Assembly (NCBI GenBank): GCA_001687465.1 | Contig: LVLI01000344.1 | Location: 1 to 64,000 of the forward strand | Length of the DNA stretch: 64,000 nucleotides | Origin: Halocafeteria seosinensis | Lineage: Eukaryota | Direction of reading: 5' to 3' | Shown: positions 1-49,456 of the stretch, in pieces | Layout of the letters: each line of letters starts with the position of its first letter | How positions within the stretch are numbered: the stretch's first letter is position 1 | Made by a program: the position numbers and the translations under genes | The notes under the pieces: generated by a model | What the model saw: the letters and a program-made list of their open reading frames with translations, nothing else | Databases searched by the model: none | What the model was told of the DNA's origin: nothing

Positions 1-3000
1 ATGTTATAATTGTCGCACCAGACGAATCAATGGAAAGGTTCCCACCAGACCCGGCAGAAGAAGAAGAGCCTGCGTGCACATCAACGTTAGCCCCTACACG
101 GGGGGAAGACCGTCCACTCTGAAACCTTATATTTCCCCCCTTTCCAAATCTGCTTTGCCCACCATGCATATCAACGCCTTTCCCACTAACAATACTCACA
201 CTAGTTCCGTCATTGTGCGNGGTCGAGCCAGTGGCCAATTTTAGGGAACCTGAACGCTTCCATGAATGCCCCGAAGACACAACTATATCGCCCCTCTCCG
301 AATTTATCTCGACATGTCCTGTGGAGCCCTGTCGACTACGACCACTCTCCACTACGATGTCCCCACTGTTGCTCCCAAATCCGCTACGGACATCGATTGA
401 AGAAAGGGGCAGCCCGGAAGAAGTCGACGGAATAAAGGCAACCATGCTAATCTCACCAGAGCCTTCAGCACCCCCGTTTGTTTTGAGATGTACCACACCC
501 CTCTCCCGACCAATGGGTGGGCTAGAAGTGCGCCCACTTCGGACTATGACACATCCTCCCACGACTCCTTCTCCACCCAAGATGGATACTGATCCTCCGA
601 CATCCCCACTTCCAGCGCGCCAACCAATCTTACTTCCTAGAGGACCAACATGAGTGTTGCCTCCCAACATTGAGATATCTCCCCCATCATGGAAACTATC
701 CCCCGTCACAAGACTGACTTGGCCGGATCTACCTGCATCTGACGCGCCTGTCTCAACGAAGATCGAATTGTTGGAGCTTGCGATGTCAACACTTCCATCG
801 CCTTCCGCTACAATATCTACGTCTGCTCCATTCTTTCTTTCTGAGGTTCCACCATGAATGACAATCTCTCTACTCTCCAAAGTGACCTTTCCCGAACCTC
901 CGTAGGCCATGCCGCTACGTAGCGATACATTTCCAGAACTACCTGTAGTCTCATTTCCTAATACCCCAGAAGACGATAACGTTAGTCTACCCGGAGATGT
1001 CACCCCTTCTCCAGGTTTCAAGACAACGTCACCGCCAACTCCCGGCCCAGCATCCCCATTGCCCCCCTTCACGTATACGACCCCTCCTACTCCCGAGACA
1101 GAGGTGCTTATTCCTCCAGTAGCGCGTAGCAAGCCACCACCGTGGTTTTGTGAGTTACCAGGATTGATAATGACGCATCCTCCCTGTGTTCCCTCACCAG
1201 TGCGTAGACGGAGATGTCCAGATACTTCTTGCAATGTGTCTCCCGATGAGAGCAAGACAGCCCCACTATGTCCACAGCCAAAAGCGGTTGAAATCGACAA
1301 ATCTCCAGAGCTGTCTCCCGCACCAGAAGAGACTTCCAACAAACTATTCGATACATTGTTCCCATCTCCACTTGTGATACGTACGTTTCCTCCAGTGTGT
1401 CTTCGTGACCCTCCTTTAACAATCACAGATCCACCTTGAACGACGCCGTTTCCACCCGATACGAAGATACGCCCACCCCTCCCTGAAGATGTCTGGCTCC
1501 CTCCAGCTGTGAACCCCACGGATCCCCCGTTTCCGCAAGACGCTCTGCCTACATGCAATCGCAGCTTTTCCTTCGAGGTACCGTAACCACTAGCCCCCAC
1601 AATTACGTAACTAGTTCCACTTTGTCCTCTTGAGTGACCCGTGGAAATGAACACGCTTCCCGACACGTTCGCCAAAGTCGGTGCGGAGACTAGAGCTGCA
1701 TTGCCGATCGAAAGGAGCCGTGTTGTTCCTCCACGATGAACGCTTGCAGCCCCTCCTTCAATAAACACGCCGCCTCCTTTCGCGCGCCCTGCTCCCCCAG
1801 AGGCTACGACTGATCCTCCGGCACTATTGTAGCTTGCACCTGATATGATTCGCACCATTGTTTCAAGGAGCTTGCTCTCACCGGGAAAAATGGCAATGTC
1901 ACCAGACTTTCCTTCCGACCGGGCAGTGCGCAGCCTAACGTTGGACGTCGATGACCGCAGGACTACTGATCCAGATTGCTGAGATGCCGTGCCTGTGAAT
2001 ATACTTACGTTTCCCGGAATCAAAGCATCCCCGGTTCTGGCATAATAAGAACTACCAAATGTCGAATACACTGAACCGGTCCTGTACATCGATTTACCGG
2101 ACGATACTGACACTGGACCACTATAATGCTTTGAAGAAGTCGATCTAAGTGCTACTACCGGGTTGCATGCTGCGGCTACAAGTGCAATGTTTCCTGTATG
2201 ATTGGAGGAAGAATGTGTGTATATCAGCACTGCGCCAGCAGACCCTGACGACTGACCGGCGAGCAACCGTACATTTCCACCCTTTGACAAGCCACTCCCT
2301 CCCTCTAGAGAGATCAATCCTGCTCGTTCTCCACTGTCTCCCGTACGGAAATCTGTAGCTGCACTAGTCCCTCTACTCACAGATCCTGTAAGAACCGTAA
2401 CGTCACCTGATCCAGCAGCGGCACTTCGAGTAGTGACGAGGACGCTTCCCGAGTTGTCTTCGCGGGCCTTGCCCGTGCGCAGCAGTATATCACCTGATTG
2501 GTTGAAGCTATCACCACTAAAAGCGCAAATGGATCCAGAAGATCTCGTCTTCGCGTTGCCCGTTGAAACTATGAAACTTCCAGAGCGAAAACCTAACCCT
2601 GTACGAAGCGCAAAGGAACCAGAGCACCGACCAAGCCCAGTTGATAGTTGAATGCTTGCGGAGATGCCCGTGTCTGGAGAGCTTCCTACTACGATATTGC
2701 TCCGCTTCGCTCGAAGCTGTACCTGCCCAGTGTTTGCTTCTACAGAATGCCCAGACGTCAGAAGAGTGAGCCCATTTGTGCTACGTGAAACAATACCGTG
2801 GTCTCCTCCTAGGATCAACGGCGAACCAGCGTCGTAGGATCTGCCTCCCTCGACGCTTACATCGGATGCCGCAATATCAATATCACCGTCCTGGATGCCG
2901 GTGCCGGCCCTGATTTCAATACGACCTGATCGCTCAACAGCATCTAGTGATCTCAATGAAACGTTCGCACTAAGAATTTGAATATGACCTGAAAAGGCTT

Positions 3001-6000
3001 CCATCGAATTACCTGAATACAGGACAATCGCTCCGGAATGGCTTCCGCTAGCTGTGGACAACGAAATCAATCCATTCTTTGTATTCATAGTCACATCCCC
3101 GCTAACTCGTGTACCCAGAGTGTCAATACGAACTTCACCAGAGGAAGAACCGGCTGGTCCGGAAAACAATGTAAGCCTCTGAGGTGAAATCGTCAGGAAG
3201 CCACTGGAGCGCTCCCCTTCACCGGTCACGGCCCGTATCCCCATAGCATTTTTACCGGTTGCCACCCAAATGCTCTTGCCAACAAATTGCATTGCTCCTG
3301 AGGTCTTGGTGGAACCAGTAGTAAAGACAATTTGCCCGGATCTTTTACGGCCCTTTCCACCTGCAAGGTTCACCACACTTCCAATAACGGAAACTTCCCC
3401 TCCTTTATATCCTCCGTCACCACCACTAAGTAACATTCTCCCCACGTTTCCCTGCAAGGCGTCCCCTGTTGTTAGCTGCAAAAAGCCCCCCTTACCACTT
3501 CCGTACCCTGCAGCTAACTTAACGTCTCCAGACACTGTAGCATTCCCGCTAGTTACAAGTATGGACCCTGCTCCTAGCGCCAAGTTACCAGACACACTTC
3601 CGCAACCGCTACTGGCTATAACGGCCCCACCCTTGTTAGCTTCGGAAGCGTTTCCTCCCTGGATGGTCACGGGTCGAGGGGCTTGCAACCCTACAGACTG
3701 TGACAGGAGGATGCTGCCGGACTCCCTTGCATTGCCGGTGGAAAGTTCAACGGAGGGACCGGAGCACGGGGAACCTATCGAAACTTGGCCACTCTCTCGA
3801 GAAAAGGCTGAATGTAACAGCAGATCGCCGCTGCGATCGTACCCTTCCGTCGACATGCTTATCTCAGACGGGCCGGAGCTACCTAATGTGATATTACCTG
3901 GTTTTGCGCCCTCCCCGGCATGCAAGACTATGCTTCCTCCGACCTCCCCTGTTGAACCCTTCGCTATAATTTCACGGCTTGTAAAGCTGATGTCAACGCC
4001 GTTACCTTCCTCTACAAACGATCCACCGAGAAGAATGTCTCCTGTGCGTACTCGACCGTCTCCAGTGTTTATCACCAAATCTCCACTCGTACGGCGCTTG
4101 CTTGACCCCGTGGACAACCTTAAGGATCCCGAGTCTGTAACAGCACTCCCCGTCTTGAGGAAAACATCACCTGACACTGCCCCTGTAGCGGTAGCTATGA
4201 TGGCTGGTCCCAGATACGGAAGGACACTGACATCACGGGTCCCTTGGACCAGCGTGCTGGCAGCTCCATCCGTGGAGGTTTTCTGAAGAGAGAATGTTGC
4301 GTGTTTGCGATGCATCCTCTCGAGCAGAGCCTTCAAATGATTTGATATAGTGCTCTGCTTCGTTCGCGCATGCAGAGCTTGATCCAATATAGAAACTCGA
4401 AGCTTTTCTGCATATACTCGACCACTAATGTTAAATGATGATTGGTTGGATGACAAAACACGCCTACCCCCGACGCCTACACCGAACCCACTCTGGAACT
4501 GGATGCGAGACGAGGCGCAAGAACTCCACAGAAAACCACGTTGTGAACGCATCTGAACGCCCCGGTGTGTGAAGGAGATATCAGAATCAGAACCACGCAG
4601 TTGTACAGCCCGTGCGGCAGGGTCACTACTGGAGTCTTCGATGGTAATATCAGTGTTTGAACGCACAGAGATGTTCCCTCCCGCCCCACTGGTGCTGTGT
4701 CCTCCGACAAAACTAGCGCTGGAGCCATTGGGTCCACCTCGAAAGATAAGGTCCCCTGACCTCCGTGTTGAGGATCCCGTTGCTACAACGAGGGCAGCTG
4801 ACTGTACCACAATGGAACCTGAAGACCTGACGGCATTGCCGGTATTAAGCAAGACATCCCCTGAAGTCGATCCACTAGTTCCAGAGTGGATAAACACCGC
4901 TCCAGAGCATTGCTGGGCGAGCCCACTCGCAATGTTAATGGATTCCTCCGTAGCGCCTGAGGAGACATTTACAACTCTTCCTTTCAAAGACACGCTTGTC
5001 TCGCTCGAAAGTGTATCTCCAGTAGCTATATGCACTCCTCCTGAAACAGCCGCCACTGTTCCTGAAGCATGGACGGCAACGTTTCCTGATGTAGATGAGC
5101 TGGGAGTAGATATCTCGATCCGTCCAGCCTTTCGCCCACTTCCACTATGGATTACCTTGCTCCCCAGCAAATGTAGACTTCCGGACATCGAGGATATTTG
5201 CACTGCTCCAGAGTCTTGCTTCGACCAACCACTACTTAGACCCACAGTTCTGCCTGCACGTACAGAGGAGCTACTTGCGGCCGAAATGGTGACGTTTCCA
5301 CCTTGGTAATGGTTGTTTCGACTCTGTCCACTGGCAATTACGGTAGTTTTACTACGGAGACTGATAGACCCACCCCGTACACCCGAGCTTCCTGCTACAG
5401 CGAAAATGGAGCTACGGTCCTGTCCGTCACCCTTCATTGCGATTCCGCAGGATGAGGACATGACAACAGAGCCAGGAGCTTCAGCATTTCCTGTTTGTGC
5501 CTCGAACAAAGAGTGCAGCGCATTTAGTGACAATCGTGTGCTGTTGAAATCAATCGAGCCTGAAGTTGTTGCACTGTCTCCGGTGAGAAATTTCCTCGAG
5601 CCAACTGTAGAGCCAGCGATGACTATAGACCCACCAAGACGACGGCCACCCGTGCTGACATCAACCGAGCCAGATAAGGTCGAGTTTTGCGTACCGATGC
5701 GTACATGGCCGGAAAAGAACCGGGATTGTCCTGTACGGACAAGCACCATCCCACTAAGCTTACCCCCTCCAGACTGCAGTGCAACTCCACCACTCTTGCC
5801 AGCATCGCCACTGATGATTGTAACAGCGTTACTGATCGCTGCTCCACCACTGTTTATTCCAATCGCACCACTTCGCGGAGCTTTGCCTGTCGACATCTGG
5901 ATCTGCCCCGTATGCTTTGCTCTTCCTGAAGCTATTGTCATCATTCCAGCACTAGTAGCCAAAACAGCACCCCCCGTCGTTCCGTCTCCACCTGCTATTT

Positions 6001-9000
6001 GAACAGTACCTGAGCTCCCAGCAACAATGCCGATGTTGCCCGCAGACAAAACGCTGCAACTTGAGGAAAAGCGGATATCTCCGGAGCGGGATCCTGCGTT
6101 ACTCGTCAGAATGAGGACATTTCCTGAGCGTCGGCCGCAATGAGAACTGAGCTCTAAATGGCCCATGTTGTCGTCTCGAGAACATGAAAGAGCAGCTACG
6201 GTTCCACCTCTCGATGAAACGCTTTCTCCAGCTTTCAGGTGTATGTCTCCACCCCGTACCCCGGAGCTGTTTCCCACTTCTACCAACACTTCATCTCGAG
6301 AAAGAATACGTATACTGGGACTGGACAGGGTTGGATACGTGGGGACAGTCACAAAGTCTATGTCACCACTTCCATAGCCAGGCGGAGAGCGAAGCTTCAA
6401 GGAGCGCGTGTTGGAATACACTCTACTTCCGGAATGTACAAGGAAACCACCGGGAATCCCATTCCGTGACTCACCTGCTTGAAAGACGGATTGCACGGCA
6501 TTGACAGCAACCGATGATACTCCAAATGTTCCACCGCCAAAAGCCTGATAGCCAATACTGCCACCTACCACGGAAGCAGAGCCTGTAGACCATCCGGTTG
6601 ACTGGGATTCTATTTCAATCTTCTCTCCATGAAAATTGAGACTACCGGAGTCGTTTGATACCCCACTTTGAACGTTAACGATGTTTCCAGATAGTCGCAC
6701 GTTTCCTGAACCTCTCGTCAACATTGCGATACTACCTCCTTGTTCACCTCCAGTGTGACTCCTGAGGGACAAACTCCCTGAAGATGTGTTGCCCCATCCC
6801 GTAGAGATTTTTACTCCTCCTGAAAAATTAGCTTTGCCGGTAGCTCCACCGACTCCTCCAGAAATAGCAGAGGACCCGGTAAATAGCTCGACACCGCTTG
6901 ATCCAATGTCCTCGCCAAGGCTGCCAAAATCTACATTGCCACTAGCGCCCCCGTCCGATGATCCGGATTTCACCAAAACTCTGCCTCCGACAAGCCCTTT
7001 TCCGGACTTGATACCTATAGACTCGTCGTCATGCGAGGTTTGTCCGTAGAAGAAAACGCCACCACTATTCAAGACACTATTTCCGGTTTTGAAACTGACT
7101 GTCCCCGAGTTCTCCAGGGTTGATCCCGTCGTGACATTGAGGGTGCCAAATCCCGAATTGAGATTAACGTCCCCTCCAACCGAACTCGAGCTACCAGATT
7201 TCAAATCAACAGTCGCTCCTGATATCTGGACAATTCCAGACATATGCTCAGTAGAGAATGCTGTCAAGAGAACTGCACCAGGGATCCCATTCCAGGATTC
7301 TCCAGCACGCACATAAATAGAATCAGATGATAACGTTATTCCCCCAAATGCGTCGAGTGAGTCACCGCTCTCTGACCTTAAACCTACGTCACCACATGAC
7401 GACCGGAGGTCGATCGACGATCCCTGACCAAAGGAGGCTAACGTGACGGGTGATTTCTTCGCATTCACGACAATATTTCCTGACTGCTTAGAACCACCGC
7501 CGGTAGTAATTGAGACAGCTCCGTGTTCAGCCGAAACGAGTGCATTGCCTGAGCTCTGAATAGCCTCCGCCGAGCGTAGCGATATGCTACCTGAGCCAGA
7601 CCCTTCCCCAGAGGAAAATGATCCCCGGTTAGCTATCGTGGATATGTCGCCCCCAAGATACCTCCCATCTCCTGCCTGTAACAACATCTTCTCTCCCTGA
7701 AGGAAACCAAGACTTCCACCACTGCGTGTGCCATTACCTGCCTGTACCGTTACACAGCCTCCTACGAATCCAATGTCTCCACCACTTGTTCCATGTCCTC
7801 CCGCAAGCTGTAAGTTTCCCGACACATACGCTGAGAACAATTTAGACCGCACCAACGCCGACCCACCCATGCTTTGACTACCCGAAGCTGCGACGGCTTC
7901 AATACTTCCGGCTCTAAGCTGAGACAACCCAGTCTTCACAAATGCTCTCTTGCCGAACACACTAACGCCTGAACTACTGTAAGACTGGGAGTTGCCGGAG
8001 CTCAAGGCCACTTTCCCAGTGCCACAGTTAGAAGACGAGGTTCGTATGGAGATTGGTTTTCCCAACGCCCGCAGAGACATTTCGCCGCCCGACATACCTT
8101 GGACAGATCCCCCAGCAGTATAGTAATGATGCTGAGACTTCACATCTATAAAGCCTGATGAATCGTTCTTCGAACTGTGGGTGCTTATTTGGAGGTTTCC
8201 GGAAGCCTTTTTCCCGGGAGATGTGCGCAGCGCAACAGTGGAGGCTTTGTCTCCACTGTGCACGGAAATGGAAGGTGATCCAATACTAACATGTCCACCG
8301 TGTGAGGTCCCTGAGTCCCCAGCTGAGACTCGAATGGCCCCTGCATTGTCTTGTGACATCTCACCCGAAGCAACTTGTATATCACGGGCAGAAACGAGCT
8401 CAACACTTGCACTTCCAATCAAACCAGATCGAGTCACAAGTGAGATATTGCCACTTCCTCGCATGTTTTTCCCAGAAACAAGGGTCAAACCTCCTGCACT
8501 CTTCAAGGAGATATGTCCCAGAGTATCGCCAGTTCCAGTTCTTAGACTGAGAGACGAAGAAGATGTGTATGTAATGTTGCCCGAATGACCAGGCGTCGTG
8601 TTACCAGTATGGAGCATCAGGTCTCCACTCCTTGTGGAGTCTACCGATTGGAGAGTCACAAACTGTGCACTGATGCTCACCGCGGAGGCGGTAGCAGACG
8701 AAGTACCATGTGTGTATATAGAACCTCCTGTGTTTCCCCCTCCCGCAATTACTTGGGCACTTTGAGCTAGTACACTAATGTCTCCGGAATTGTATTGTGT
8801 ATCTCCACTCGTCAAGTGCACGCTATCCCTTGACCAAAGGTTGACATCCCCAGCCTTAGATTCCCGGCTCCTGGACACTCCTGCGTTCACTAAGACGTCC
8901 CCCGTGTTTCCCCCGTGCTCCGCGATACTTCCACTGGCAACATGAATGGATCCCGCAGAGCGGGAACGAGATGTAACAAGGTAAACATCACCACTGTCCC

Positions 9001-12000
9001 CAGCTGCAACTCCAGAACTGACCCGTAAGTTTCCAGAAGATGCGGCTTTGCCTGTAAAAAGCTGGACGTTGGCAACGCCAGTCCTTGGACGGCTCAAAGA
9101 GGCTCCATTGAGGACGATGCTCCTGTCATCAATCTGCAATACACTGTTTCGAATCCGCAATTGCTCCAAAACTTGGATAGTTGGATCAAGCATGGATTTC
9201 TCGTTTCTCCTTGTTTTGGATTTATCGCTGCTCTCTGGTGACAAGCGAGCGTATAGCTTCCCGATACCTGTCATTTCTGCCCCGGACATGTGCTTGTCGC
9301 CAGGGTCTTGTAGAATAGCATTTTGGGAGTCATCAATCACGACAAATGGCTTTCCGCTACCCACGGTAAAATCTGCTTCGTGACCGGCAGAAAGAGCGAG
9401 GCGCAAACCTGAGTCAACTGTGGCATTGGTGTACAGCCTCATCATTGACATATTTACGCCTGATAGAACAACCCCAGAACCTGACTGAGAGAGACCAGTC
9501 TCTACTGGAAGTCGAAAGTTCACCGTTCTCCGGCCCGCCAAATGCAGATCCTTGCTGCTGTAAAGAGATATAGATCCTCCATCCCCATTTGTACTCGATC
9601 CAACGAGAAGATTGATACTTCCAGATGATCCCGTCTCTGTGTTCCCCGTTGAGAGCTCGGCACTGCCAGACCGACCCGACCGAGACTGTCCAGTACTTAG
9701 GAACATCCCTCCACTTTGTCTCTCAACGGAACAACCTGTTCTTATCGTGACTAAACCCGACGATCCATTGTGCGATGCAGAATGTCCGCTAGATAAGTCA
9801 ATACTACCGGTCAAACGACCGGCTGTCATGGACGGTGCTGTCTGGAAAGAAGTGTGTCCGCAATTGCTTCCACTAATCATCTCAATATTACCACCGGCGA
9901 GCTCACTGCTCCCCGCAACTATTTCGATTTGGTTTCCTCCAGCAAGTACAATATCTCCACCAGTGGCATTTCCTGTCGATCCGCCGAGGATGTTTATACT
10001 TCCACTCCTATTAAAATTTGTTTCACCGGTCGCCAGGACAGTCTTCGATCCCTTACCCAATAATGCGATCCGGCCTGCAATACCGGATACTGACGCTCCC
10101 GTAGTAAGCAGTATAGTGTTGCCCGCGTTGCTGGAGCCAAATCTAATCGATCCACCACTTCCTCTGCAGGTTTCACCAGTCTGCATTGATATAGTTGCGG
10201 AACTGTTTCCTCTGGCACTGGAAGCGATCAGTATGTGTCCCTCCGTGCCAAACGAGACTGCCCCAGACTTCGTAGCAGCAGCCGTCGCAATGGTTACAAG
10301 AGAATCCGTGCCAGAAGAGGATATGCGAGTTTCCAATGCTTCCAGCAGCACGGATCCTGATGACGCGAGCGTCAAAGAACTTCCTTTCATCTCAATGTGA
10401 TTGTTCTTACTCCCAGCACTGCTGATAGCTACTGACCCATTAACCGCGTTCGCAAACATGGACACATTCTTAGAGGACATGATGATGCCTCGTGAACTTT
10501 GGATGGCTATTGAACCTGTGGATGAGGATGCTCCTGTGGACAGTCGTATGTTACCGGACTCACGTTTACTTTGGCCGCTGGAGAGGGACAAATTTCCCCC
10601 ACGAGAAATTACTCGAGTATCTCCGTTACTACTAAGCACTGTACTACCACCAAAACTGCCTTCGCCTGCTGATATTTCAACTCGCCCCCCCATACGAGCG
10701 GAGCTCCTACCACCCTGAATCCATATAGCGCCCCCACCTTGAGTAGAATATCCCGAAGAGATATACACGTTTCCTCCTGTTTGACGCCCCATATTATTCA
10801 GCGAGTGGACAGTAATGCTTCCACTATTTCCGGCGGCTGCATTGCTGGTTACCATCTTTACTGTGCCGCTGTAGTTACTTCCTCCAGAAAGCATTTGAAG
10901 GTTGCCCCCTCTTTGCTCACCGTCACCAGCCTTTACAGAAATCTTTCCGCTTGATCCATTTCCATAACTGCCTGCAACCCCAAAGATAGATGGAGCTGTT
11001 AGAGAAATGGTTCCAACATCGCAGCGCGAGCTTCCCGTAGCAAGGGTAATACCTCCTTCGCCTGTTGAGGCCAGCGAGACCGAATAAGCTTGTACAGCCA
11101 GTCCTCCACTACTGGAGTTCTCCCGGTGTGCAGTCCGCAGGTTGATGGACTTAGACAAAAACTCAATCCCTCCGCCTCTCATAGATATCTTCCCCCTATG
11201 GACGGATGAATAGCCTGTTGACAAGTAGACAAAAGAAGGTACACCGGGACCTCCCAGCGTTACGTTGCCTGAGATTGAGGCCCTACCGCTTGATATACGA
11301 ACGTCACCGGACTTGTCCGATGGCCCAGTACGTAAGACCACCGCTCCTCCCGTCTTGTGGGCATTCCCTCCACGTACAGTGATTGCAGATGCTGAAACAG
11401 CGACTTTTCCATCTCCACCTGGAAAAGACATTATCCCAATATTACCCCCCGTATGGCTTCGAAAAGTGACGGAGCCGCTATTGGAGACTCCTGTAGATGT
11501 TTGAAGCTTTAGGGACCCACTTTGTGTGCCCGACCTCGTTGTTGAGAGCACAATGCCCTCAGCACCACGCAAACGCACACTGCCGGATCTAAGAGTCGAG
11601 GCTCCACTTTTTAGTATGATCATCGCATGAGAGTTAACCAGCCCCTTCTGACCACTCGCAACCTTAACATTACCCGACATTTCCGCATTTCCTGTGCGTA
11701 GGTTGATACTCCCGCTCCAATTGCTGGGCCCAGTGGATAGAACTAGGCGTGAACCCTCATCACTCCCTATTCCACCTTGCACAAGCAGGGAAGATGACAT
11801 TGCCGATGAAAAACCAACTCTGTGTCCCAGAAACGCAATGTCCCCACCCCCAGTGTTGCTACTGGGAACAGTCATATTTATCCGTACGGCGGAGAGACTC
11901 GCTCCCTTACTACCAAACTCGATGTCGACCTTTCCTGAAGTACAATGACTGACACCAGTACTAAAATAGAGCCCACCTCCTGCAGCCAACACTGCATTCC

Positions 12001-15000
12001 CCGAAGATGCAATGTCAATCTTTCCGGAGCTACTAATGGATATGTTTTCTGACCCATTCACAGCTTCTTGGGTTCGCAAGTTTATGTCTCCGGCTACACC
12101 GATTGACGACTTTCCGGTAGCCAGACAGATGTTACCCGGAGCAGTGGCGGTATTCCCAGTAGAAAGGGAGATATTTCCGGATCCCAATGAAGAGGTACCC
12201 GTGCCAATAGCAAGAGGGGAAGACGTTTGTCCATGTTGCGTTGAGAATAAAACCCAGCCGCTAGATAATTTTCCCTTGCCACTCTTTAGTCTTACTGCAC
12301 TTTGAGCACTTCTTACAACTATCCTTCCCGAGCCATAGGTGCTTCCATCGGAGACTAGGCGAACATCTCCTGAGGCATCACCGGACTTCCCGCTCCCCAG
12401 GGAAATCGTCCCGTGTACGCTGTGATGCGTACTTGCATTTGCTCTTGTAATCAAGCGTATGCTGCCGGATGATATATCAGCCAGTGCAGTCCCGATAATG
12501 ACTCCATTCCTTCCGCTTACAGAGACTGTGCCGCCAACAATAGAAACGTTGGCAGAATGAGAAGCCTTCCTCTCGGCTGATGTCACGCGCACACCACCAC
12601 CATACGACTCCACATATACGGAGCCACCCTTGACGTCTTTTGATCGTCCCGCGATTGCGTGAAAGCTTTCTTCCACCGTCGCTGCAATATCCCCACCGAA
12701 CGTCCCCAAAAATATGCACCCACCATTGTCAGCTTCCATAGACAAAGTGCTACGATTCCCGACCGCAGACAAAGCAATTCCCTGGGTAGCGCTCGCAAGA
12801 ATACTTCCGCCAGCACGCTGCGCCTTGCCAATTAAAAGTTGTGTAGTTAGCGCCGATATGATTACCCCTGAGCTACTGCTAGACTGGGAGTTACCGGAAC
12901 TCAAGGTCACTTTCCCAGTGCCACAGTTAGAAGACGAGGTTCGTATGGAGATTGGTTTTCCCAACGCCCGCAGAGACACTTCGCCGCCCGACATACCTTG
13001 GACAGATCCCCCAGCGGTATAGTAATGATGCTGAGACTTCACATCTATAAAGCCTGATGAATCGTTCTTCGAACTGTGGGTGCTTATTTGGAGGTTTCCG
13101 GAAGCCTTTTTCCCGGGAGATGTGCGCAGCGCAATAATGGAGGCTTTGTCTCCACTGTGCACGGAAATGGAAGGTGATCCAATACTAACATGTCCACCGT
13201 GTGAGGTACCTGAGTCCCCAGCTGAGACTCGAATGACCCCTGCATTGTCTTGTGACATCTCACCCGAAGCAACTTGTATATCACGGGCAGAAACGAGCTC
13301 GACACTTGCACTTCCAATCAAACCAGATCGAGTCAAAAGTGAGATATTGCCACTTCCTCGCATGCTTTTCCCAGAAACAAGGGTCAAACCTCCTGCACTC
13401 TTCAAGGAGATATGTCCCAGAGTATCGCCCGTTCCAGTTCTTAGACTGAAGGACGAAGAAGATGTGTATGTAATGTTGCCCGAATGACCAGGCGTCGTGT
13501 TACCAGTATGGAGCACCAGGTCTCCACTCCTTGTGGAGTCTACCGATTGGAGAGTCACAAACTGTGCACTGATGCTCACCGCGGAGGCGGTAGCAGACGA
13601 AGTACCATGTGTGTATATAGAACCTCCTGTGTTTCCCCCTCCCGCAATTACTTGGGCACTTTGAGCTAGTACACTAATGTCTCCGGAATTGTATTGCGTA
13701 TCTCCACTCGTCAAGTGCACGCTATCCCTTGACCAAAGGTTGACATGCCCAGCCTTAGATTCCGGGCTCCTGGACACACCTGCGTTCACTAAGACGTCCC
13801 CCGTGTTCCCCCGGTGCTCCGCGATACTTCCACTGGCAACATGAATGGATCCCGCAGAGCGGGAACGAGATGTAACAAGGTAAACATCACCACTGGCCCC
13901 AGCTGCAACTCCAGAACTGACCCGTAAGTTTCCAGAAGATGCGGCTTTGCCTGTAAGAAGCTGGACGTTGGCAACGCCAGTCCTTGGACGGCTCAAAGAG
14001 GCTCCTTTGAGGACGATGCTCTTATCGTCAATCTGCAATACACTGTTTCGAATCCGTAATTGCTCCAAAACTTGGATAGTTGGATCAAGCATGGATTTCT
14101 CGTTTCTCCTTCTTTTGGATTTATCGCTGCTCTCTGGTGACAAGCGAGTGTATAGTTTCCCGATACCTGTCATTTCTGCCCCGGACATGTGCTTGTCGCC
14201 AGGGTCTTGTAGAATAGTGTTTTGGGAGTCATCAATCACGACAAATGGCTTTCCGCTACCCACAGTAAAATCTGCTTCGTGACCGGCAGAAAGAGCGAGG
14301 CGCAAACCTGAGTCAACTGTGGCATTGGTGTACAGCCTCATCATTGACATATTTACCCCTGATAGAACAACTCCAGAACCCGACTGTGAGAGACCGGTCT
14401 CTACTGGAAGTCGAAAGTTCACCGTTCTCCGGCCCGCCAAATGCAGATCCTTGCTGCTGTTAAGAGATATAGATCCTCCATCCCCATTTAGACTCGATCC
14501 AACCAGAAGATTGATACTTCCAGAAGATCCCGTCTCTGTGTTCCCCGTTGAGAGCTCAGCACTACCAGACCGACCCGACCGAGACTGTCCAGTACTTAGG
14601 AACATCCCTCCACTTTGTCTCTTAACGGAACAACCTGTTCTTATCGTGACTAAACCCGACGATCCATTGTGCGATGCAGAATGTCCGCTAGATAAGTCAA
14701 TACTACCGGTCAAACGACCGGCTGTCATGGACGGTGCTGTCTGGAAAGAAGTGTGTCCACAATTACTTCCACTAATCATCTCAATATTACCACCGGCGAG
14801 CTCACTGCTCCCCGCAACTATTTCGATTCGGTTTCCTCCAGCAAGTACAATATCTCCACCAGTGGCATTTCCTGTCGATCCGCCGAGGATGTTTATACTT
14901 CCACTCCTATTAAAATTTGTTTCACCGGTCGCCAGGACAGTTTTCGACCCCTTACCCAATAATGATATCTTTCCGGCAGTTGTTTCAGCAGCACCCGTAG

Positions 15001-18000: not shown

Positions 18001-21000
18001 CAGTGAATACGCCCACAAGACCACTCCTTTCAGCACCGTTCCCTGAACCGATAGCCAGGGAGCCGGGCGAGCGGATATTCATATCCCCAGAGCTCTCTCC
18101 ACACCCTGTCTTCAGCCGCAACGAACCACTTATGTGGCCTTTTCCACTGCCAAGACTTATGTTGCCTCCAGAATTCCCAAATCCAGCAGATATGGTCGAG
18201 CCACCACTGCTGGTATAGGAGCATCCCCCCGCAAACGTAACATCCCCGGATTTCATCCCTGAATCTCCTGTTCGAAGGACTATTCCAGGAAGCGCCGGGC
18301 CGCCACATCCTCTTAGCACGGTGTTCCCGCTCACTTCCGAGTTACCAGTGCCAAAGCCTACGTCACCGCTGTTGTTAGATATCCCCGTAGATAGTACGAT
18401 AATACTAGAACCACCACGTCCCATTGTGGCAAATGATACCGATCCACTCAATTCATTTGAATCGCCTGAGGCCAACGCCAGTCCGTCAGCGCCACTGGAA
18501 ACGAGAAATGCTTCCTCGGAAGACACTCGAACTAGGCCAGACGACAAACCGGTCCCAGAGGACAAACGTACGACGCTCCCTTTGCTCCGAGATCCAGAGA
18601 TAATAGAGATTTCCCCTCCCTTGCTACTGAAATCCACGGAGCCACTACTCAGTGACCCATTTCCGCTGAACAATGAAAGGGAGCCTGCCTTAGAGCTTGA
18701 TCCTGTTCCGAGGCGCAAACTTCCTGAGGTCGGAGCGACGCCAGATAAAAGGCGGATAAGTCCAGACTGGATTCCACAACGAGTGCTAAACTGAACACCC
18801 CCACCTCTAACTGCACCATGCGAGGCGATAACACTCAGGTTTCCACCAATCATCCCTTCGCCCCCAAGAAATGAAATACTTCCAGGTGTCTGTCGAGAGG
18901 AAGAAGCTGCAATAGACATACCCGAAACGACGCCCCAGTCGTGAACGCCTCCATTCAGCAGAACGTCACCGCTTGAGACCCAGCCGTTGCCGGTTTGTAA
19001 TACAGTATCGGAAGCACTCGTTACATTCATTTCACCACCGTGCAGATGGACGCTACCTGAAGTGAGAGCCCCCATTGCTGTACGAAGAGAAAGAATCCTA
19101 GTCGTAGAAGATCCAAGCTGCACGATTCCGGCTTCCCCAGTAGTTTGTAAAATGATTCCCCCACCAAACGTCCCCCCTGAACCAGCCAATAGGGACAGAG
19201 CGCCACCACGTTCATGTGCTTTACCACTTCTGAGGTGTATATGCCCACTGGTCTCACCGTCTCCTGTCGCAAATTCAATTGAACCACTGGTACGAATGGA
19301 GTTCCCCGTATTTAGGCGCACAGAACCCGACAAACGCCTAGCTGACGGAGTACGTACCATCATATCTCCCATTTTACCTGTCCCACTACTTAGCCTGACG
19401 GCTGTGGAAACAATAGATGCTTGAGAACCACTCCGTTCTTTGCCTCGGCCTGCGTCGACCAGTATCTCGCCACTACGTTCTTCGGAGTAACCTGACGACA
19501 GTGTAACGTCTCCTCCAGTTCTTAAACTACTACCGGAAACAAGAAATATGTTGCCAGAGCTACTTCCCGAGCCGGAGCCGATCCGTACACAGCCAGAAAC
19601 ACTTGATGAGCCCGTTCCAAACATGACAGCGCCACTGTGAACGGCATTGTCCGACGCAATTCTAACAGCACCCGAGACGTCCCCCATCCCTGAATCAACA
19701 GTAACACTACCACCAGATAACGAGGAAAACGCGTCGCCAGCAGAAAGAGCAATAGTCCCCCCTTTATATGCCAGCCCACCATAACCACGCACGTCTCCCC
19801 CGTGTCCAGTAAAGCTGTCACCCGCATTGACACTAAAATCCCCGGAGGATAATAGTGACCCACCAGAGCGAATGTCAACGTCGCCTGTAGAACGTATACT
19901 TTCCCCTGTCCGAATTGATAAATGCCCGCCATGGCTGCCGAAAGAACCACCAGAAACAACCATGATATTACCGCCAGGTGAAAGGCCCGAGGAGAAGCCT
20001 GTGTAAAACGCCACTCCACCGGAATTGCTCTTGCCGTAGCCACTTCTGACAGACAACCCGGAGCTGCTCCCCTTCTTTGAATCTCCGCTTTTCAGGAGAA
20101 CATTACCACTCCTCTCGCTACTAAGCGTCCTCAAAGAAACGTGACGCCGTTGGTGGGAGATAAGGACTACGTGCCCACTTGAGTATAAGCCTGAACCTGA
20201 AGACAGACTGACGCCTCCATCACCATGGAAGCCTACCTGCCCACTCCCTTGGAAAACACCAGCGTGACCACCATCAAGTGGCGTTGTACCAATTGCTGAT
20301 CCTCCAGACAGCCGAACCCTTCCACTCTCGTGAGCCCCATCCCCAGATTGCACCAAAATATGGCTAGTGTTTGTACCGCCTACGAAAACAGTTGAACCAT
20401 TGCTTCGAACACTACTCCCTCCTAACACACGGAGTGGAGAAGTTTTCCCGAAACTATCGCCGGTACTCAGGACAATATCCCCGCTAACTATACGCCCACC
20501 CGGGCTTGATAGATATAGACCGCCACTTTTGTGAGAAGAGTAGCCGGTGTAAAGTAGGATAGCTCCTGATGTCTTGCGCCCCCCTGCGTTGACAACGATA
20601 TTTCCGCCAAACGATCCATCTCCACCTACGACGCCCATTGATCCCACTGATCCACAGCTAGAACCTGTACTTATGCGTATGGATCCTGAAGTCAATAACT
20701 GAAGGGATGAGGGGAGATTTTTCTTGGATGAACCGAGTACAGTGACTGTGCCGCCTCCTTCGCTCCCTAAATGCACATTCCCTCCTCTAACACCGTCTCC
20801 CCCAATCAGCACAAGGGTATTGGAGGCATTTCCAGACACTTGGGTCAGGACAACGCTTCCGGCTGAAAACCTGCTCGGACCTGTAGCAAGGGAAATAGAC
20901 CCAGAGCTCGTGCTGGCATTCCCCGTTAGTACGCCAAGCTGCGTTGAAGCTATACGCAGGCATCCAGAGAAAGCGCCATTGCCACTACGTATGGTTGCAC

Positions 21001-24000
21001 TTCCACTTGATTTTTCAGCTTTGCCAGTCACAAACTGTGTCCAGGAGCCCTTCAGAGTAAGGTTCCCCGTGAGACCGGAAGCTGGACTCCCTAGTATCAC
21101 GTCACCACTGGCAAACGAGTTTCCCGAAGATAGTCTCAAAAGCCGACTTGCCTGTAGAAAGACGTCGCCCCCACTCTTCTTGCTGGTGTAACCGCCTTGT
21201 ACTCTCACGCTACCCCCTATAGACGATCCTTTCCCCGCTACTACCGAAACCAGCTCTCCGCCAATCAGCAACGACCCAGCCGTACCAAGAAGAGCGGAAC
21301 CACTATTCCCCGTTTTGAGGGTTACAGTTCCAGCTTCTAAGGACGAGTTCCCTGTTTGAATCCGCAAACCTCCAGAAAAGTAGGAATAAGCGGTTGCTAT
21401 CGTCATATTTCCGCCCCCAACACCAGCTTGCAGAGAAACGTTACCTGCGGCTGCATCTGAAGAGCCCGACATCAGCACAACACCTCGATTGGACGCAGAA
21501 TCACCGAATCCAGCCATTAGGCTTATGTTACCACTACACATATTCGCATCGTGGGAAGCGATGGCTATATTCCCAGTATCCGCAGCGGAACCAGTTCTCA
21601 ACACAATACGCGATTTGTCTCGAAGGGTTTGTAACTGTAAATTTCCACTCCGGCTTAACCCTTCGCCACTACGCAGAACGATTTCACCACCGCCGAAACT
21701 TTCAAACCTTAAATCGCCGCCTTCAGCATTAGAGTCTCTACCGGCACTGTGCCCTGCCTTAATTTGGACAAGACCACCTCTATTAGAGTACCCTGCGCGG
21801 ACAACGACAGAGCCGGTGTCCCTGTCACTATTAGCTGTGAACAGTGAAACTGCTCCGGCCACCCCAAAGGGGGAGCTACCGACTGCCACAGTGACGCTTC
21901 CGGAGTTTCCACCAGCACTGCCTGAGAGCAACCGGACGTCTGCAGAGCGAGTATAGGCAGTACCACTGGCCAAGCGAAATGCTGAACTATTGAAACTGCT
22001 ACGAGTGGCAAGGCTCACCGTCCCGGTACTTCCTCTTTGATTCACCGACATAATGCGAATAGCTGCACCCTTCCAGTAGCCGACCCCGCCCTGGAACAGA
22101 ACCTCTCCACCCCCTAGTCCTAAGCCCCCTTTGATATCTAAAGAGCTTCCGTTCGAAGCAGAATGTCCTGTTCCAACCAAAAGATTACCGGATTTGTCTG
22201 AGGTACCCGTGAAAATTGTAAGGTCACCACTAGCTCCGCGGATTCCTCCTCGTGCACTCCGAATGTGTGCACAGCCAGAGGACACCCAACCATTTCCTGT
22301 CTTGACGTCCACAACTCCGCCAGCTTTACTTATGCTTGCCCCTGACTGAAGGTGTACTAATCCGCCTTCAGCTTCATCATCGCGGGCTTTGGTATCCCCT
22401 CCGGCAAGCTCTATATCTCCCCCAGGCCCTTTTGCTCCGTCACCACCGCGTAACACTATCTCACCGTGGTGGGCGACGCCCCGTCCTGGACTGATAGTTA
22501 CGTCCCCCCCGTTGTCAAGTTCGCTATGCCCTGCAGCGATACTTACTCTTCCCCCTTGGGAGATTGACCTGCCAATACGCAAAACAATCTTGCCGCTACT
22601 TCCGTTACGACTCGCAGATGTATACATCGAAAGGTCCCCCGACTGCACTAAGGATGATGCCGTTTTCGCTACGATCGCCCCCGATATCCATGATTGATGA
22701 GTACCAATCACAACATCACCCCCCGCTCCAAGGGTTGCCCTACCACCTCCAATCAACAATCGAGAAGACGACCGTTTTGCTCCCGTCGTGGAGCCACCAG
22801 AGTGAAGTCGGAACGTTCCGGCCGTGGATCCAGACCCTGTACGGATTCTTACGGAACCTCCCGTGGTCCTGGAGCTGTGCGTGTCTCCCCCATTTAATTG
22901 GATTAGAGCCCCTTTGTTCTCACTCTTGCGAAGATTTCGACCGGTACGTACGCGGATGTGAGTTCCACCAATTGAAATGCTTCCTGAGACGCCGTCTCGT
23001 GTAGCTCTCCCACTTAGCAGTTTAACACCTCCGGAGCTCCCCAAAACACTATCAGAAGTTGTAAACGTTACACTCTCGCCACTACGTAGCACCATATGTC
23101 CACCAATCATGCCACCATCACCGCCTCTCACATCTACAGAACCTGATTCGCCGGCTGTAAGAGAAGCCAGCAGTATGTTCCCACCCGAAGTTCCTCGTCC
23201 TCCCGAAAGAGATATATGCCCCCCATACTCCCCATCTCCTGCTAGTGCGCGAATGCGATTTGTTGTGCTAGCATGCGATATTGCCGACAATGTAATATCT
23301 CCAACTTGTGTGTACCCCTTGCCCGTTGTTATCTGGACAGAGCCAGAAATCGGTCCGTTGCCCGAGAAGACCTTCACCGGGCCAGTACCCACAAGTCCTT
23401 TTCCTGTAAGTAGAGCTATCTGCCCTGAATTGCTTTTTGAGGTGGCACTCGAAATTCTTATAGGTCCGGAGGCACGGCTAGGAGAGCCATAGCCTGTTGC
23501 TATACCTACGATTCCACCGTATCTTTCGGAACTTCCTCCTATAACCTTGATGTTACCTGCAGACATCCGAGACGTCCCAGACACTACATTAATTGATCCT
23601 GAGGTGGCATTCTGGGTATTGCCTGTCTTTAGAAGGACTACAGAGGATTCCCAATTCAAACTACCGCTTGAACTCCCGAATCCTGACCGGATTAGTAGTG
23701 GGCCAGATTTGAGCCTGGACTCTCCTGACGAAAGAATCATTTTTGCACCGCCAATATAGACGCGACCACCTTCTGCATTATCCTCTTGATCACGACCACT
23801 GACTAAAACATTACCTCCCTGTTCCCCATTACCTCCCCCCACTTTTACTGTGCCACTTGATTGTGTTGTGTTCCCTGGTGATATCAGTATGGCACCGCCA
23901 CTAATTGCGTTGATTGGACCTGACTTGAGCTCACCTGTCCCCGTGTGTATCATTACTAATCCCGAATGACAGTCACTGAGACCGCTTGAAACCGTGACAC

Positions 24001-25239
24001 TCCCACTCTCTGTTCCGGAGTGTTGAGAGGAGATACTAATGCTGGTATGTCCCACTCCTCCGCTCGAGCCGAGCAATTGAACAGAGCCTCCTTTAGAGAT
24101 TGAACCGCCACCCTTTATGACAATATTACCGCTGCTTAAGCCTAAAATATCTCCTCCCTCGCTACTACTATTACCAGCGCGAAGAAGGATAGAACCGCTC
24201 CTGCTTCCTTTTGCTCCGCTAAAGAGTGTAACATTTCCAGACCGTCCTGTTGAAACCCCTGACGATATCACCACATATCCTGATCGAGGAGAGACGGCTG
24301 TAAATATCGAGGACACCCCACTTTTCACACCGCTTCCACTTGAGAGTGCAAGTCTCCCATGCGACAGCACACTGATATGCCCTCCTTGGTTAGCTGTGGT
24401 CTGAGCATGCAGAGTCACGTTGCCCGGCCATTTCCTGGCTTGCGAACTCATTCCAGCGCGAAAGCATAGCTCTCCCATGTGTTCACCCGGAATGCTAACC
24501 ATCTGAATGGTCGTAAAATTCAATGTTGCTTGCTGAGGGGTAATAGAAGCACCACTGCTGCTTGACTGGTACGACAACCCGGAGACATGCTCGTCACTTG
24601 GTTGAGCAATCTCCAACATGCCACTGACCCTTGTAACTGCGGAAGAAAATGAAGCGGATACAATTGCAACATCCGAAAAGAACGTACATCGACCTACTAG
24701 ATGTGAAAGCCGACGGACATGGAGTGTCAAAAACTGTTCCTCGACACATGTATTCGAACACAGACTCTAGAGGAACGCATATGCTCTGAGAAGTGCACCA
24801 CGCACAGCTGCTATCTAGTGCGCACACGGAGCATTCCCTCCATGAAAAGCATTCTGCATTTTGAACAATGTTGGCTACCAGAAATTCTTATTGATGGTTT
24901 GGTCGAAGTATTGAGGGAGAGCTCACCTGAGCAATGTTCCGTGGATTGTATCCATAGATTGCATTCTCCAGCGATTGAGTCATCTATACCTGCCCCAAAT
25001 TTACACTCATCTTTCTCCACGCAGTAGCGACACTCAGGAATTTCAGTACATTCCCGGCATCTGCGAGCACACCGCGGGTGTATAACAAGTTGGGAACATG
25101 GCGATGTTCAAACGTACCCTTTACGGGTTTCACACGACTCCATCCCAACGGAATGCTGCGCAAGGGCAGAACACAGAACGAAAAGGATCGCAGTGCGTGT
25201 GATGATGTTCGTTGCACAAATGGTCTGAGAGTTGGCCAT
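1..25239 (-). CDS. Giant secreted Gly/Ser/Thr-rich beta-repeat (adhesin/fibre-like) protein with N-terminal PSI-like Cys modules; >8,300 aa, C-terminus truncated by the window edge
   Basis: ATG at 25239 gives MANSQTICATNIITRTAILFVLCSALA-QHS (hydrophobic signal peptide). Introns at 25117-25061 (GTACGT..CGCAG) and 24697-24637 (GTAGGT..CCGCAG). Cys modules CETRKGCRECTEIPECRYCVEKDEC and CFSWRECSVCALDSSCAWCTSQSIC. From 24636 to base 1 the frame appears stop-free: the ORF track lists no minus-strand ORF in this frame below 25130, and the Pro-rich + strand shadow ORFs keep one phase throughout. Sample translation near 9560-9715: SGGMFLSTGQSRSGRSGSAELSTGNTETGSSGSINLLVGSSTNGDGGSISLYS. One frame change near 24854-24878 is unresolved. 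Confidence 0.9.
7968..10065. repeat. Internal duplication in the giant gene, copy A (~2.1 kb)
   Basis: Aligns to 12867-14964 at a constant offset of 4899 nt (1633 codons), with scattered substitutions and no visible indel. Shadow ORFs are duplicated too (8181/13080, 8585/13484, 9048/13947). Confidence 0.97.
12867..14964. repeat. Internal duplication in the giant gene, copy B (~2.1 kb)
   Basis: Near-identical direct copy of 7968-10065, in frame. Confidence 0.97.
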
Positions 25240-25610
25240 GGCTCGGCGGCAGATTCCTCTTGGTATTGACTCCCCTCTGATGTCCTCCACTGTACACATT
25301 TCCGTATATATGACAGTCCTTGCTAATGCAAAGTTTCAGTTCCAACCACGTTGTTCGCCTAAAGACTATTCGAAAGAACCATCCATGTAGTTGGGGTGTG
25401 TCTCTTGTGCGTTTTGTGTCCTATCAGTTCCTTTTGTCCTGCTTTTTCCACCTCCCTGGTGACATTATCCACGATAAATCTCAGGCACTACGGTTTATGA
25501 TGGAAACAGAAAACAAACGCAACACTATTAGAAAACAGAGAATAGGTCTATGTCATGAAAAAAGCAACCGAGTTGTAGCGCTTTGTGCCACGTACACAAA
25601 CAAGGAGGGG

Positions 25611-30077: not shown

Positions 30078-30322
30078 ATTTCGGAGCTTCACAAACGAGT
30101 TTTATGTTTCTACATGATGCACACACCGTAGAAGCGAACAATGCAGCACAATTGTTCATCGCGGGAAAAAATAGAGATAAATAAATCGTGTCAGAGCTAG
30201 CTCCGTATAGCGTTTGTATATCCACCTTCTTCACATTAAGACGCACGCGCTGGCAGCCAGGCTAAGCCAGCTCCTTCTTTGAGAGCTTCTTGGACGAATA
30301 CAGATATCCACAACGAGAGACA

Positions 30323-49039: not shown

Positions 49040-49456
49040 TCAAGTTCTGGATCGTGCGACTGCCGTCCACCACTGGAATTGAACTGCAGGCCACTGTAAA
49101 ATCTGCACTGGGAGTGGATCAAGTACGAAAAATACCGAGGATTGCGTACGACGCTGTATTGAGATCGACATGAAGCTCTAGAAGACAAGCTGCTCGGATA
49201 AAGACTACTTAAGTAACTTAACGGTCTTCAGCACAAGGCACCTTCACAAGGAGGAGTGCGACCTGGAAATTCTGCTGGAATCCTTCCTACGATGTGGAAG
49301 CCTATGCAAACCGTACGTTTTGTAGTGATAGTATTAATCCACTCTGAATGAAAGGTGTGCGTAAAATGGTATAGGAAGTAGGGTGATAATGTGGCGGGTT
49401 GNAACAACGCAGAGTGAGCTTTGAATTGAAAGCCAGAATCTGGAAGCAGCATCACG

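What the first reader, a model, noticed from the sequence alone, without database searches (positions are those of the whole stretch)
1..25239. Hidden >8,300-aa secreted beta-repeat protein with a single 24.6-kb exon
Seen: a signal peptide, two PSI-like Cys modules, then more than 8,200 apparently stop-free codons. They consist of divergent ~13-16-aa repeats of the form G-x-(V/I)-x-(L/I)-x-(T/S)-G-xxxxx-(S/G), and the frame runs off the window. The ORF track does not list it. Most other genes here are interrupted by short introns, yet this exon has none that is needed. Known: alternating hydrophobic strands with Gly turns are typical of beta-solenoid or beta-helix fibres such as adhesins and phage tail fibres. 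Inference: a very long extracellular filament (hair, scale, extrusome or adhesive thread) of a protist.
Basis: partly seen in the sequence, partly recalled or inferred. Interest (0 to 1): 0.78.

Follow-up and report, generated by a model that had tools for sequence, protein, structure and literature searches.

The report
Giant protist triple beta-helix fibre gene
A single-celled eukaryote carries an intact, conserved gene of more than 8,350 codons whose likely secreted product is predicted to wind three copies into a phage-tail-like thread at least about 0.3 micrometres long, and related genes occur in several other protists without a known function.

Summary
Three short exons encode a signal-peptide-like start and two PSI-like modules. 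A fourth exon holds 8,211 stop-free codons and runs off the window (at least 8,356 aa). Variants in a related run are mostly synonymous, with no nonsense changes and only in-frame exon indels. The ~14-residue repeat G-x-V/I-x-L/I-x-S/T-G occurs 169 times against 5 by chance. The gene is no orphan: six metagenome loci share its head, one also two intron positions and a giant exon. Four of 15 repeat-bearing homologues, one from Aphanomyces, embed a Peptidase_S74 (ICA) chaperone, the module that folds triple beta-helices. An alignment-based model is an open chain without internal sheets, and its only six weak matches (Z 2.2-3.2) are phage-type spikes and fibres. Best reading: a homotrimeric triple-beta-helix fibre of a likely stramenopile, at least 0.28 um long. 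Against: no ICA domain in the visible part; C-terminus and expression unseen. Closest known kind: the TLP-12 glycofibril and its ~20,000-aa Amoebophrya candidates, but the repeat differs (14 versus 12). A new variant of a known kind. Its location (flagellar-hair filament, adhesive thread or coat) is open.

The parts
25118..25239 (-). Exon 1: start codon at 25239, signal-peptide-like segment (about residues 1-27, 25239-25159)
   Evidence: Gene model; hydropathy peak 2.7 over 11 residues; similar starts in L002 and L003
25061..25117 (-). Intron 1, 57 nt, GT-AG
24927..25060 (-). Exon 2: first PSI-like Cys module
   Evidence: BLASTP to homologue P0128 residues 80-122, 33% identity, E 2e-6; no Pfam hit on its own
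24875..24926 (-). Intron 2, 52 nt, phase 1; same position and phase in L005
   Evidence: run X1 has a 1-nt deletion at 24892, inside this intron
24698..24874 (-). Exon 3: second PSI-like module ending in the family motif C-[RK]-G-x-V-F-D-x-P-C-P
   Evidence: Pfam PSI E 0.0098, below cutoff; 45% identity to P0128, E 1e-12; motif in alignment A4
24637..24697 (-). Intron 3, 61 nt, phase 1; same position and phase in L005
1..24636 (-). Exon 4: 8,211 stop-free codons of degenerate 13-15-aa Gly/Ser-rich beta repeats (about 580 units), open at the window edge; predicted fibre shaft
   Evidence: purifying selection
12864..14964 (-). Copy 1 of an in-frame 700-codon internal duplication
   Evidence: 97.3% identity, no gaps; 31 synonymous and 24 non-synonymous codon differences in 699 codons
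7965..10065 (-). Copy 2 of the duplication, 1,633 codons downstream
13955..14194 (-). Gly/Ser-poor island 1 (non-repeat knot, inside duplication copy 1); not a detectable S74 relic
9035..9334 (-). Gly/Ser-poor island 2 (copy of island 1)
4175..4474 (-). Gly/Ser-poor island 3, unrelated in sequence to island 1

Best explanation
The gene encodes a protein of at least 8,356 residues, likely secreted, whose two PSI-like head modules are followed by about 580 Gly/Ser-rich 14-residue repeats that are predicted to wind three chains into a triple beta-helix fibre at least about 0.28 um long. Shown: the open frame, purifying selection, the repeat, and a head and intron layout conserved in other protists. 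Inferred: each repeat gives one short strand (V/I and L/I facing the shared core) plus a Gly/Ser loop at the corner; three chains stack at about 0.48 nm per rung; an ICA/S74 chaperone, found in repeat-bearing relatives and expected in the unseen C-terminal part, nucleates the trimer in the secretory pathway and may cut itself off; the Ser/Thr-rich surface is likely glycosylated as in TLP-12; the conserved Cys-rich head forms the docking tip, so that gene length sets fibre length. The host is likely a heterotrophic stramenopile and the fibre most likely a cell-surface thread.
For: Selection: 26 of 40 listed variants synonymous (211 found, 40 shown) and 19 of 37 codons (380 found, 40 shown) against 26% expected, none nonsense; exon indels of 6 and 15 nt, and the only frameshifting indel lies in intron 2. 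Family: 6 of 134 pattern matches are relatives; L005 has a 2,935-codon stop-free exon and two introns at the same codon and phase. Chaperone link: 4 of 15 repeat-bearing hits carry Pfam Peptidase_S74 above cutoff (37-52 bits), with the same repeat on both sides and a 14-15 periodicity; 3 of 4 keep S-D-x-R-x-K. ICA domains drive triple-beta-helix folding and Ser-Lys self-cleavage (PMC8326128, PMC3742443, passages). Model: with a 33-row alignment AlphaFold2 gives pLDDT 59.8 and no hydrogen-bonded strands within the chain, as one chain of an intertwined trimer would look; only 6 of 48,161 PDB chains reach Z 2, and they are a contractile-injection baseplate chain, three streptococcal phage hyaluronidase fibres, a Streptomyces hyaluronidase and a T4 gp5 beta-helix fragment (that all six are triple beta-helices is recalled, only the gp5 title says beta-helix). 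108 gp5 residues span model residues 1-189, about one 8-residue gp5 strand (recalled period) per 14-mer.
Against: No ICA/S74 is detectable in the 8,211 visible codons by Pfam, a custom HMM, hhalign over 135 tiles and three islands or the dyad motif. Structural Z scores of 2.2-3.2 are in the range that may mean only a common arrangement; Foldseek found nothing in PDB; the model is of moderate confidence (pTM 0.45). The single-sequence model formed strands within one chain (pLDDT 43). The C-terminus is unseen, so an anchor or cytoplasmic tail is not excluded. The window's head is more diverged than those of the other family members. Host placement rests on one gene, and its clade holds a bicosoecid and two ciliate-labelled sequences.
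Confidence: 0.68

Rival explanations
1. The repeats fold within one chain as a beta-roll or beta-solenoid (RTX- or TpsA-like rod), giving a shorter monomeric adhesin rod.
For: Alternating hydrophobic strands with Gly turns; the single-sequence model has many intrachain strands; no ICA seen in the window.
Against: That model is low confidence (pLDDT 43.4); with an alignment the chain has no internal sheets; no monomeric solenoid is among the six structural matches; repeat homologues carry a trimer-folding chaperone.
Confidence: 0.14
2. The protein is a largely unfolded, heavily O-glycosylated mucin- or silk-like gel or coat component, and the repeat is only compositional.
For: 36% Gly+Ser; many non-synonymous variants tolerated (14 of 40, 18 of 37); modest pLDDT.
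Against: Strict hydrophobic alternation 34-fold above shuffles, low Pro (1.4%), conservative substitutions, fixed 13-15 period shared by distant relatives.
Confidence: 0.08
3. Functional variant of the best reading: the trimer is the terminal or lateral filament of the stramenopile tripartite flagellar hair, docked by its Cys-rich head on the EGF-like shaft proteins.
For: Head-bearing loci span GC 0.42-0.70, one beside a DUF3082 gene, and repeat relatives include an oomycete, which suggests a widely shared structure; tripartite hairs have terminal filaments, and the papers read name only shaft or developmental proteins Mas1-3 (10.64898/2026.09.11.750887, passages); the predicted length is of the right order (filament dimensions recalled).
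Against: No localisation or expression data. Hosts of the six loci are unnamed. Term searches for S74, endosialidase, plexin and their accessions found 0 hits in the supplements of a Phytophthora zoospore membrane proteome (3 files) and an Aurantiochytrium zoospore proteome (4 files); this is weak, as the tables may not use such terms.
Confidence: 0.17
4. The ORF is an endogenous viral or phage tail-fibre gene, or an assembly artefact, rather than a host gene.
For: Phage-like architecture; two uncharacterised phage proteins match the model at E below 1e-3; one Atlas neighbour cluster is viral; a 2.1-kb near-identical duplication.
Against: Spliceosomal introns conserved in another protist, signal-peptide-like start, ordinary eukaryotic neighbours; head not found in viral contigs or prokaryote genomes; 0 PHROG hits for 6 pieces; in 79 viral S74 ORFs none has the repeat downstream and 1 has three or more motifs; duplication differences are biased to synonymous sites.
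Confidence: 0.03

Closest known systems
TLP-12 glycofibril and its candidate ~20,000-aa Amoebophrya proteins (CryoSeek; bioRxiv 10.1101/2025.09.30.679562, section 7 read whole)
   Same: Giant protist protein of short Gly/Ser-containing repeats; trimeric triple beta-helix stem; ICA domain in the candidates; function unknown.
   Different: TLP-12 has regular 12-mers (G1, S2, S5) with two strands per repeat in alveolates and a C-terminal ICA. Here the repeat is a degenerate 13-15-mer with no 12 period, a PSI-PSI head, a likely stramenopile host, and internal ICA domains in relatives.
Phage tail fibres and tailspikes with a Peptidase_S74 intramolecular chaperone (K1F endosialidase type)
   Same: Predicted triple beta-helix; S74 with S-D-x-R-x-K in repeat-bearing relatives.
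   Different: Viral S74 domains had no repeat downstream (0 of 79 ORFs), whereas the protist relatives have repeats on both sides; no enzyme domain; ER signal and introns; far longer; no S74 in the visible part of this gene.
T4 gp5 beta-helix, contractile-injection spikes, streptococcal phage hyaluronidase HylP
   Same: The only structural matches to the model, Z 2.2-3.2.
   Different: Those shafts are 100-300 residues with 6-8-residue repeats (recalled); here each rung carries an extra Gly/Ser loop and the shaft exceeds 8,000 residues; no sequence similarity.
MYRF / MrfA ICA domain with beta-helical stalk (PMC8326128, PMC3742443; passages)
   Same: Eukaryotic use of the phage-type ICA to trimerise a beta-helix in the ER.
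   Different: MYRF is a membrane transcription factor with a short stalk; no DNA-binding domain here.
Stramenopile mastigoneme proteins Mas1-3 (passages)
   Same: Secreted, Cys-rich modules, stramenopile.
   Different: About 64 kDa EGF-like proteins of the tubular shaft; no giant beta repeat.

Membership tests
TLP-12 / Amoebophrya dodecapeptide fibre family | 12-residue period with G-S-x-x-S motif | tested here: not met
   Lag-12 autocorrelation -0.02 (hydrophobic) and -0.06 (Gly), peak at 14; only 25 G-S-x-x-S sites, none 12 apart
TLP-12 / Amoebophrya dodecapeptide fibre family | C-terminal ICA domain | not testable with these tools
   C-terminus lies beyond the window; no genome held; no metagenome contig matched the left end
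TLP-12 / Amoebophrya dodecapeptide fibre family | Dense Ser-linked glycan shell | not testable with these tools
   18% Ser and 7% Thr would allow it; needs glycoproteomics
ICA/S74-chaperoned triple beta-helix fibres (phage tailspike type) | Peptidase_S74 domain with Ser-Lys dyad on the same chain | tested here: inconclusive
   Absent from the 8,211 visible codons (positive control P0137 tail scored probability 95); present in 4 of 15 repeat homologues; rest of gene unseen
ICA/S74-chaperoned triple beta-helix fibres (phage tailspike type) | Chain geometry of an intertwined triple beta-helix | tested here: inconclusive
   Open single-chain model; 6 of 48,161 chains at Z 2.2-3.2, all spikes or fibres; weak scores
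ICA/S74-chaperoned triple beta-helix fibres (phage tailspike type) | Viral genomic context | tested here: not met
   Introns and eukaryotic neighbours; head not found in viral contigs
PSI (plexin repeat, PF01437) domain | Pfam gathering score 23.1 bits | tested here: inconclusive
   Window exon 3 scores 16.7, L002 21.9, L003 22.1, L005 18.2, P0128 25.3: PSI-like, one family member passes
Unnamed PSI-PSI-FDxPCP giant repeat family (L001-L006) | Two PSI-like modules ending C-[RK]-G-x-V-F-D-x-P-C-P, then 13-17-aa repeats | tested here: met
Unnamed PSI-PSI-FDxPCP giant repeat family (L001-L006) | Shared intron positions | tested here: met
   Introns 2 and 3 at the same codon and phase 1 in the window and L005
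Mastigoneme Mas1-3 family | [quoted passage not shown] | tested here: not met
   No EGF hit in any exon; length over 8,350 aa

The most novel reading that the evidence does not exclude
This PSI-headed giant is a conserved, overlooked stramenopile gene family that builds the terminal or lateral filaments of the tripartite flagellar hair from a phage-type triple beta-helix. Internal self-cleaving ICA domains in relatives would cut one polyprotein into filaments of set lengths, so gene length acts as a molecular ruler. Gene finders miss it because of its single giant exon.
Probability: 0.15. Interest if true: 0.85.

Novelty: new variant of a known kind. Interest (0 to 1): 0.55.

Why it matters
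Cryo-EM surveys of natural water now find triple-beta-helix glycofibrils with no assigned gene or host; this family gives a concrete sequence signature (PSI-PSI head, 14-mer rung, internal ICA in relatives) to match against such maps. It suggests that phage-type fibre architecture is used widely in protists outside alveolates. It also offers a testable candidate for unassigned surface filaments of stramenopiles, among them the hair filaments for which the papers read name no protein. Genes of this size are fragmented in protein databases: all 17 hits were under 1,900 aa, and none of 582 giant candidates scored.

Tried and rejected
Trimer prediction of a 280-residue shaft segment: no verdict (score 0.02, mark 0.32; alignment not used, controls not folded); no evidence either way. 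Expression: no RNA holder listed. Extending the gene leftwards: no own genome, 0 metagenome matches to a left-end pattern, no usable loose end in runs X1-X3 (the one loose end is the window's own continuation). Idea that the three Gly/Ser-poor islands are decayed ICA domains: rejected, scores within shuffles (31, 6 and 52 of 60 shuffles reached them); islands 1 and 3 do not align, so an old 1,600-residue module structure is not supported beyond the recent duplication. Exon 3 alone found no candidate; giant-length search none of 582; PDB sequence search 0; PHROGs 0 of 6 pieces; Foldseek PDB 0; Atlas neighbours unnamed, score 0.94 but low recognition, and under 0.9 for the P0128 head. Two of the 17 profile hits (P0126, P0129) are unrelated low-complexity repeats and were dropped before the count of 15. 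P0134 against 50,697 phage records matched one, over S74 only. A control fold search with the single-sequence model could not be run. Depth in X1 is about twice as high over duplication copy 1 and near zero over copy 2, which fits two collapsed copies, but contig depth is no copy number. Literature: nine searches listed no paper describing this family; the library lacks most subscription papers.
Full report
Observation. One minus-strand frame is free of stops from 24766 to the window's left edge, 8,255 codons; the next longest in the window is 1,394 and 200 base shuffles gave at most 204. An ATG at 25239 and three GT-AG introns of 57, 52 and 61 nt give a stop-free product of at least 8,356 residues; of six donor sites tried for the third intron, two kept the frame and only 24697 starts with GT. 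Exon 1 has a hydrophobic segment ending A-L-A, read as a signal peptide (no SignalP). Exons 2 and 3 are Cys-rich; exon 3 has a sub-cutoff Pfam PSI hit. Exon 4 is 18% Ser, 18% Gly and 1.4% Pro. The motif G-x-hydrophobic-x-hydrophobic-x-S/T/A-G occurs 169 times against a shuffled mean of 4.9, with spacings peaking at 13-15 and autocorrelation at lag 14.

It is a maintained gene. One public run (X1, contigs, not on record as RNA, possibly related to the window's source) holds the gene with about 2% differences. Of the 40 variants listed among 211 in 1-7900, 26 are synonymous, 14 non-synonymous and none nonsense, against 26% synonymous expected (P 4e-7). Of the 40 listed among 380 in 7400-25400, falling in 37 codons, 19 are synonymous, 18 not, none nonsense (P 1e-3). 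The three indels are 6 and 15 nt in exon 4 and 1 nt at 24892, inside predicted intron 2. A 2,101-nt in-frame duplication (14964-12864 and 10065-7965, 97.3%) differs at 31 synonymous and 24 non-synonymous codons. Selection is real but relaxed, as expected for a structural repeat.

Host. Neighbours are ordinary eukaryotic genes (RPS7, a JmjC protein, kinases). Most named RPS7 relatives are stramenopiles at 57-65% identity. In a tree of 27 chosen rows the window's RPS7 groups at 99/99 with a bicosoecid, two unnamed rows, a close unnamed relative and two ciliate-labelled rows. A heterotrophic stramenopile is likely, on one gene.

Family. A search of 1.84 billion representatives with the first 1,100 residues of exon 4 gave 17 hits (best E 1.8e-11); 15 carry the same repeat, and two unrelated repeats were dropped. 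P0128 has the same head: both window exons align to it in order (E 2e-6 and 1e-12). A metagenome scan with this head confirmed 6 of 134 pattern matches (L001 is P0128's own contig), with GC 0.42-0.70. L005 has small head exons and then 2,935 stop-free codons with 83 motifs that run off its contig, and its two head introns sit at the same codon and phase as introns 2 and 3 here. The head was not found in viral contigs or prokaryote genomes (pattern-limited searches). The window's copy is the most diverged member after the head.

Chaperone link. Four of the 15 repeat-bearing hits, among them an Aphanomyces euteiches protein, carry Pfam Peptidase_S74 well above cutoff. A fifth ends in a truncated copy, and one has Kringle domains among the repeats. 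In all four the repeat lies on both sides of the domain, and three keep S-D-x-R-x-K. In 79 viral S74 ORFs fetched for comparison none has the motif downstream. ICA domains trimerise, fold an upstream triple beta-helix and self-cleave by a Ser-Lys dyad (PMC8326128, PMC3742443; passages). Against this, the window's 8,211 codons hold no detectable S74 by four tests, and no chain with both head and S74 was seen here. An earlier AI note on another genome (e1-7133470) describes such a chain; I could not check it and do not count it as support.

Fold. A single-sequence AlphaFold2 model was poor (pLDDT 43.4). With 33 aligned repeat segments a 280-residue piece reached pLDDT 59.8, pTM 0.45, with no hydrogen-bonded strands inside the chain, which is how one chain of an intertwined trimer would appear. 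Of 48,161 solved chains only six reach Z 2: a contractile-injection baseplate chain (Z 3.2, rmsd 3.5, 121 aligned), three phage hyaluronidase fibres (Z 3.1, 3.0, 2.7), a T4 gp5 beta-helix fragment (Z 2.9, rmsd 2.8, 108 aligned) and a Streptomyces hyaluronidase (Z 2.2). That these are all triple beta-helices is recalled knowledge; the scores are weak and are a consistent hint only. The gp5 fragment spans 189 model residues, about one strand per 14-mer, which gives about 580 rungs and 0.28 um for the visible part (0.48 nm per rung assumed), or 0.56 um if each repeat has two strands as in TLP-12. Foldseek found nothing in PDB and two uncharacterised phage proteins in BFVD.

Mechanism. Shown: frame, selection, repeat, conserved head and introns, S74 in repeat relatives. 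Inferred: secretion; three chains zipped into a triple beta-helix with a Val/Ile/Leu core and Gly/Ser loops, nucleated by an ICA in the unseen part; glycosylation; the PSI pair as docking tip; length set by the gene. I put 0.68 on the trimeric fibre, 0.14 on a single-chain solenoid, 0.08 on a disordered glycoprotein and 0.03 on a viral or artefactual origin. Among cellular roles, a filament of the tripartite flagellar hair is the most testable (about 0.17), but nothing here localises the protein.

Comparison with what is known. The closest described kind is TLP-12, a trimeric triple-beta-helix glycofibril of 12-mers whose candidate proteins are ~20,000-residue Amoebophrya chains with a C-terminal ICA (10.1101/2025.09.30.679562; passages and section 7; supplements not seen). 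This protein likely works like it but is not a member: there is no 12 period and no regularly spaced G-S-x-x-S, and it has a PSI head. It is not a Mas1-3 protein (10.64898/2026.09.11.750887, PMC12223298, 10.1101/2024.02.19.579948; passages). Also read as passages: PMC12221091, PMC11412368, PMC8577464. Nine searches listed no description of this family. Other windows of this scan report similar giant fibre genes, so the kind is recurrent rather than unique.

Verdict. Observation confirmed; interpretation partly supported and sharpened to a likely chaperone-folded triple beta-helix; a new variant of a known kind; interest 0.55.

Noticed in passing
window 36925-41106 (+): A 1,394-codon stop-free stretch has the end of a SET domain at its start (22.3 bits, cutoff 22.4) and a protein kinase domain near its end: a possible SET-kinase fusion.
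   Followed up: no
window 44057-47419 (+): A 1,121-codon stretch joins a protein kinase and a PP2C phosphatase domain in one frame.
   Followed up: no
window 32811-34316 (-) and 54427-55011 (-): A JmjC/KDM8-like gene and ribosomal protein S7e, both apparently without introns; S7e was used for host placement.
   Followed up: partly
window 30266-63925: Further housekeeping-like frames, named from recalled motifs only: diflavin reductase (30266-32791), macrodomain-like (49430-49996), ATG4-like (51461-52342), sugar transporter (56456-58304), DEAD-box helicase (58497-60174), SNAPC3-like (60536-61898), sideroflexin-like (62458-63925).
   Followed up: no
P0131: A relative has three Kringle domains inserted among the same Gly/Ser repeats, so the shaft can carry side domains.
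   Followed up: no
P0132: Labelled a tail-fibre protein of an archaeal MAG but has the protist-type repeat with an internal S74 whose catalytic Ser is Ala; it may be eukaryotic contamination of that bin.
   Followed up: no
P0123, P0130, P0132, P0134: S74 domains sit inside the chain with repeats on both sides, unlike the viral ones examined; self-cleavage would cut a polyprotein into fibre segments.
   Followed up: partly
L001:2090-2201: The repeat frame shifts once on this contig, with repeats continuing in another frame: a sequencing error or a short intron.
   Followed up: no
L005:2550-5612; L002:775-2364; L003:3-806: Neighbours of the family differ between hosts: retinol-binding-protein-receptor-like, dynamin-like and DUF3082 genes; no conserved synteny with the window.
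   Followed up: no
window 14194, 9334, 4474: The three non-repeat islands are spaced about 1,600 codons apart, although only the first two are related in sequence; unexplained.
   Followed up: partly
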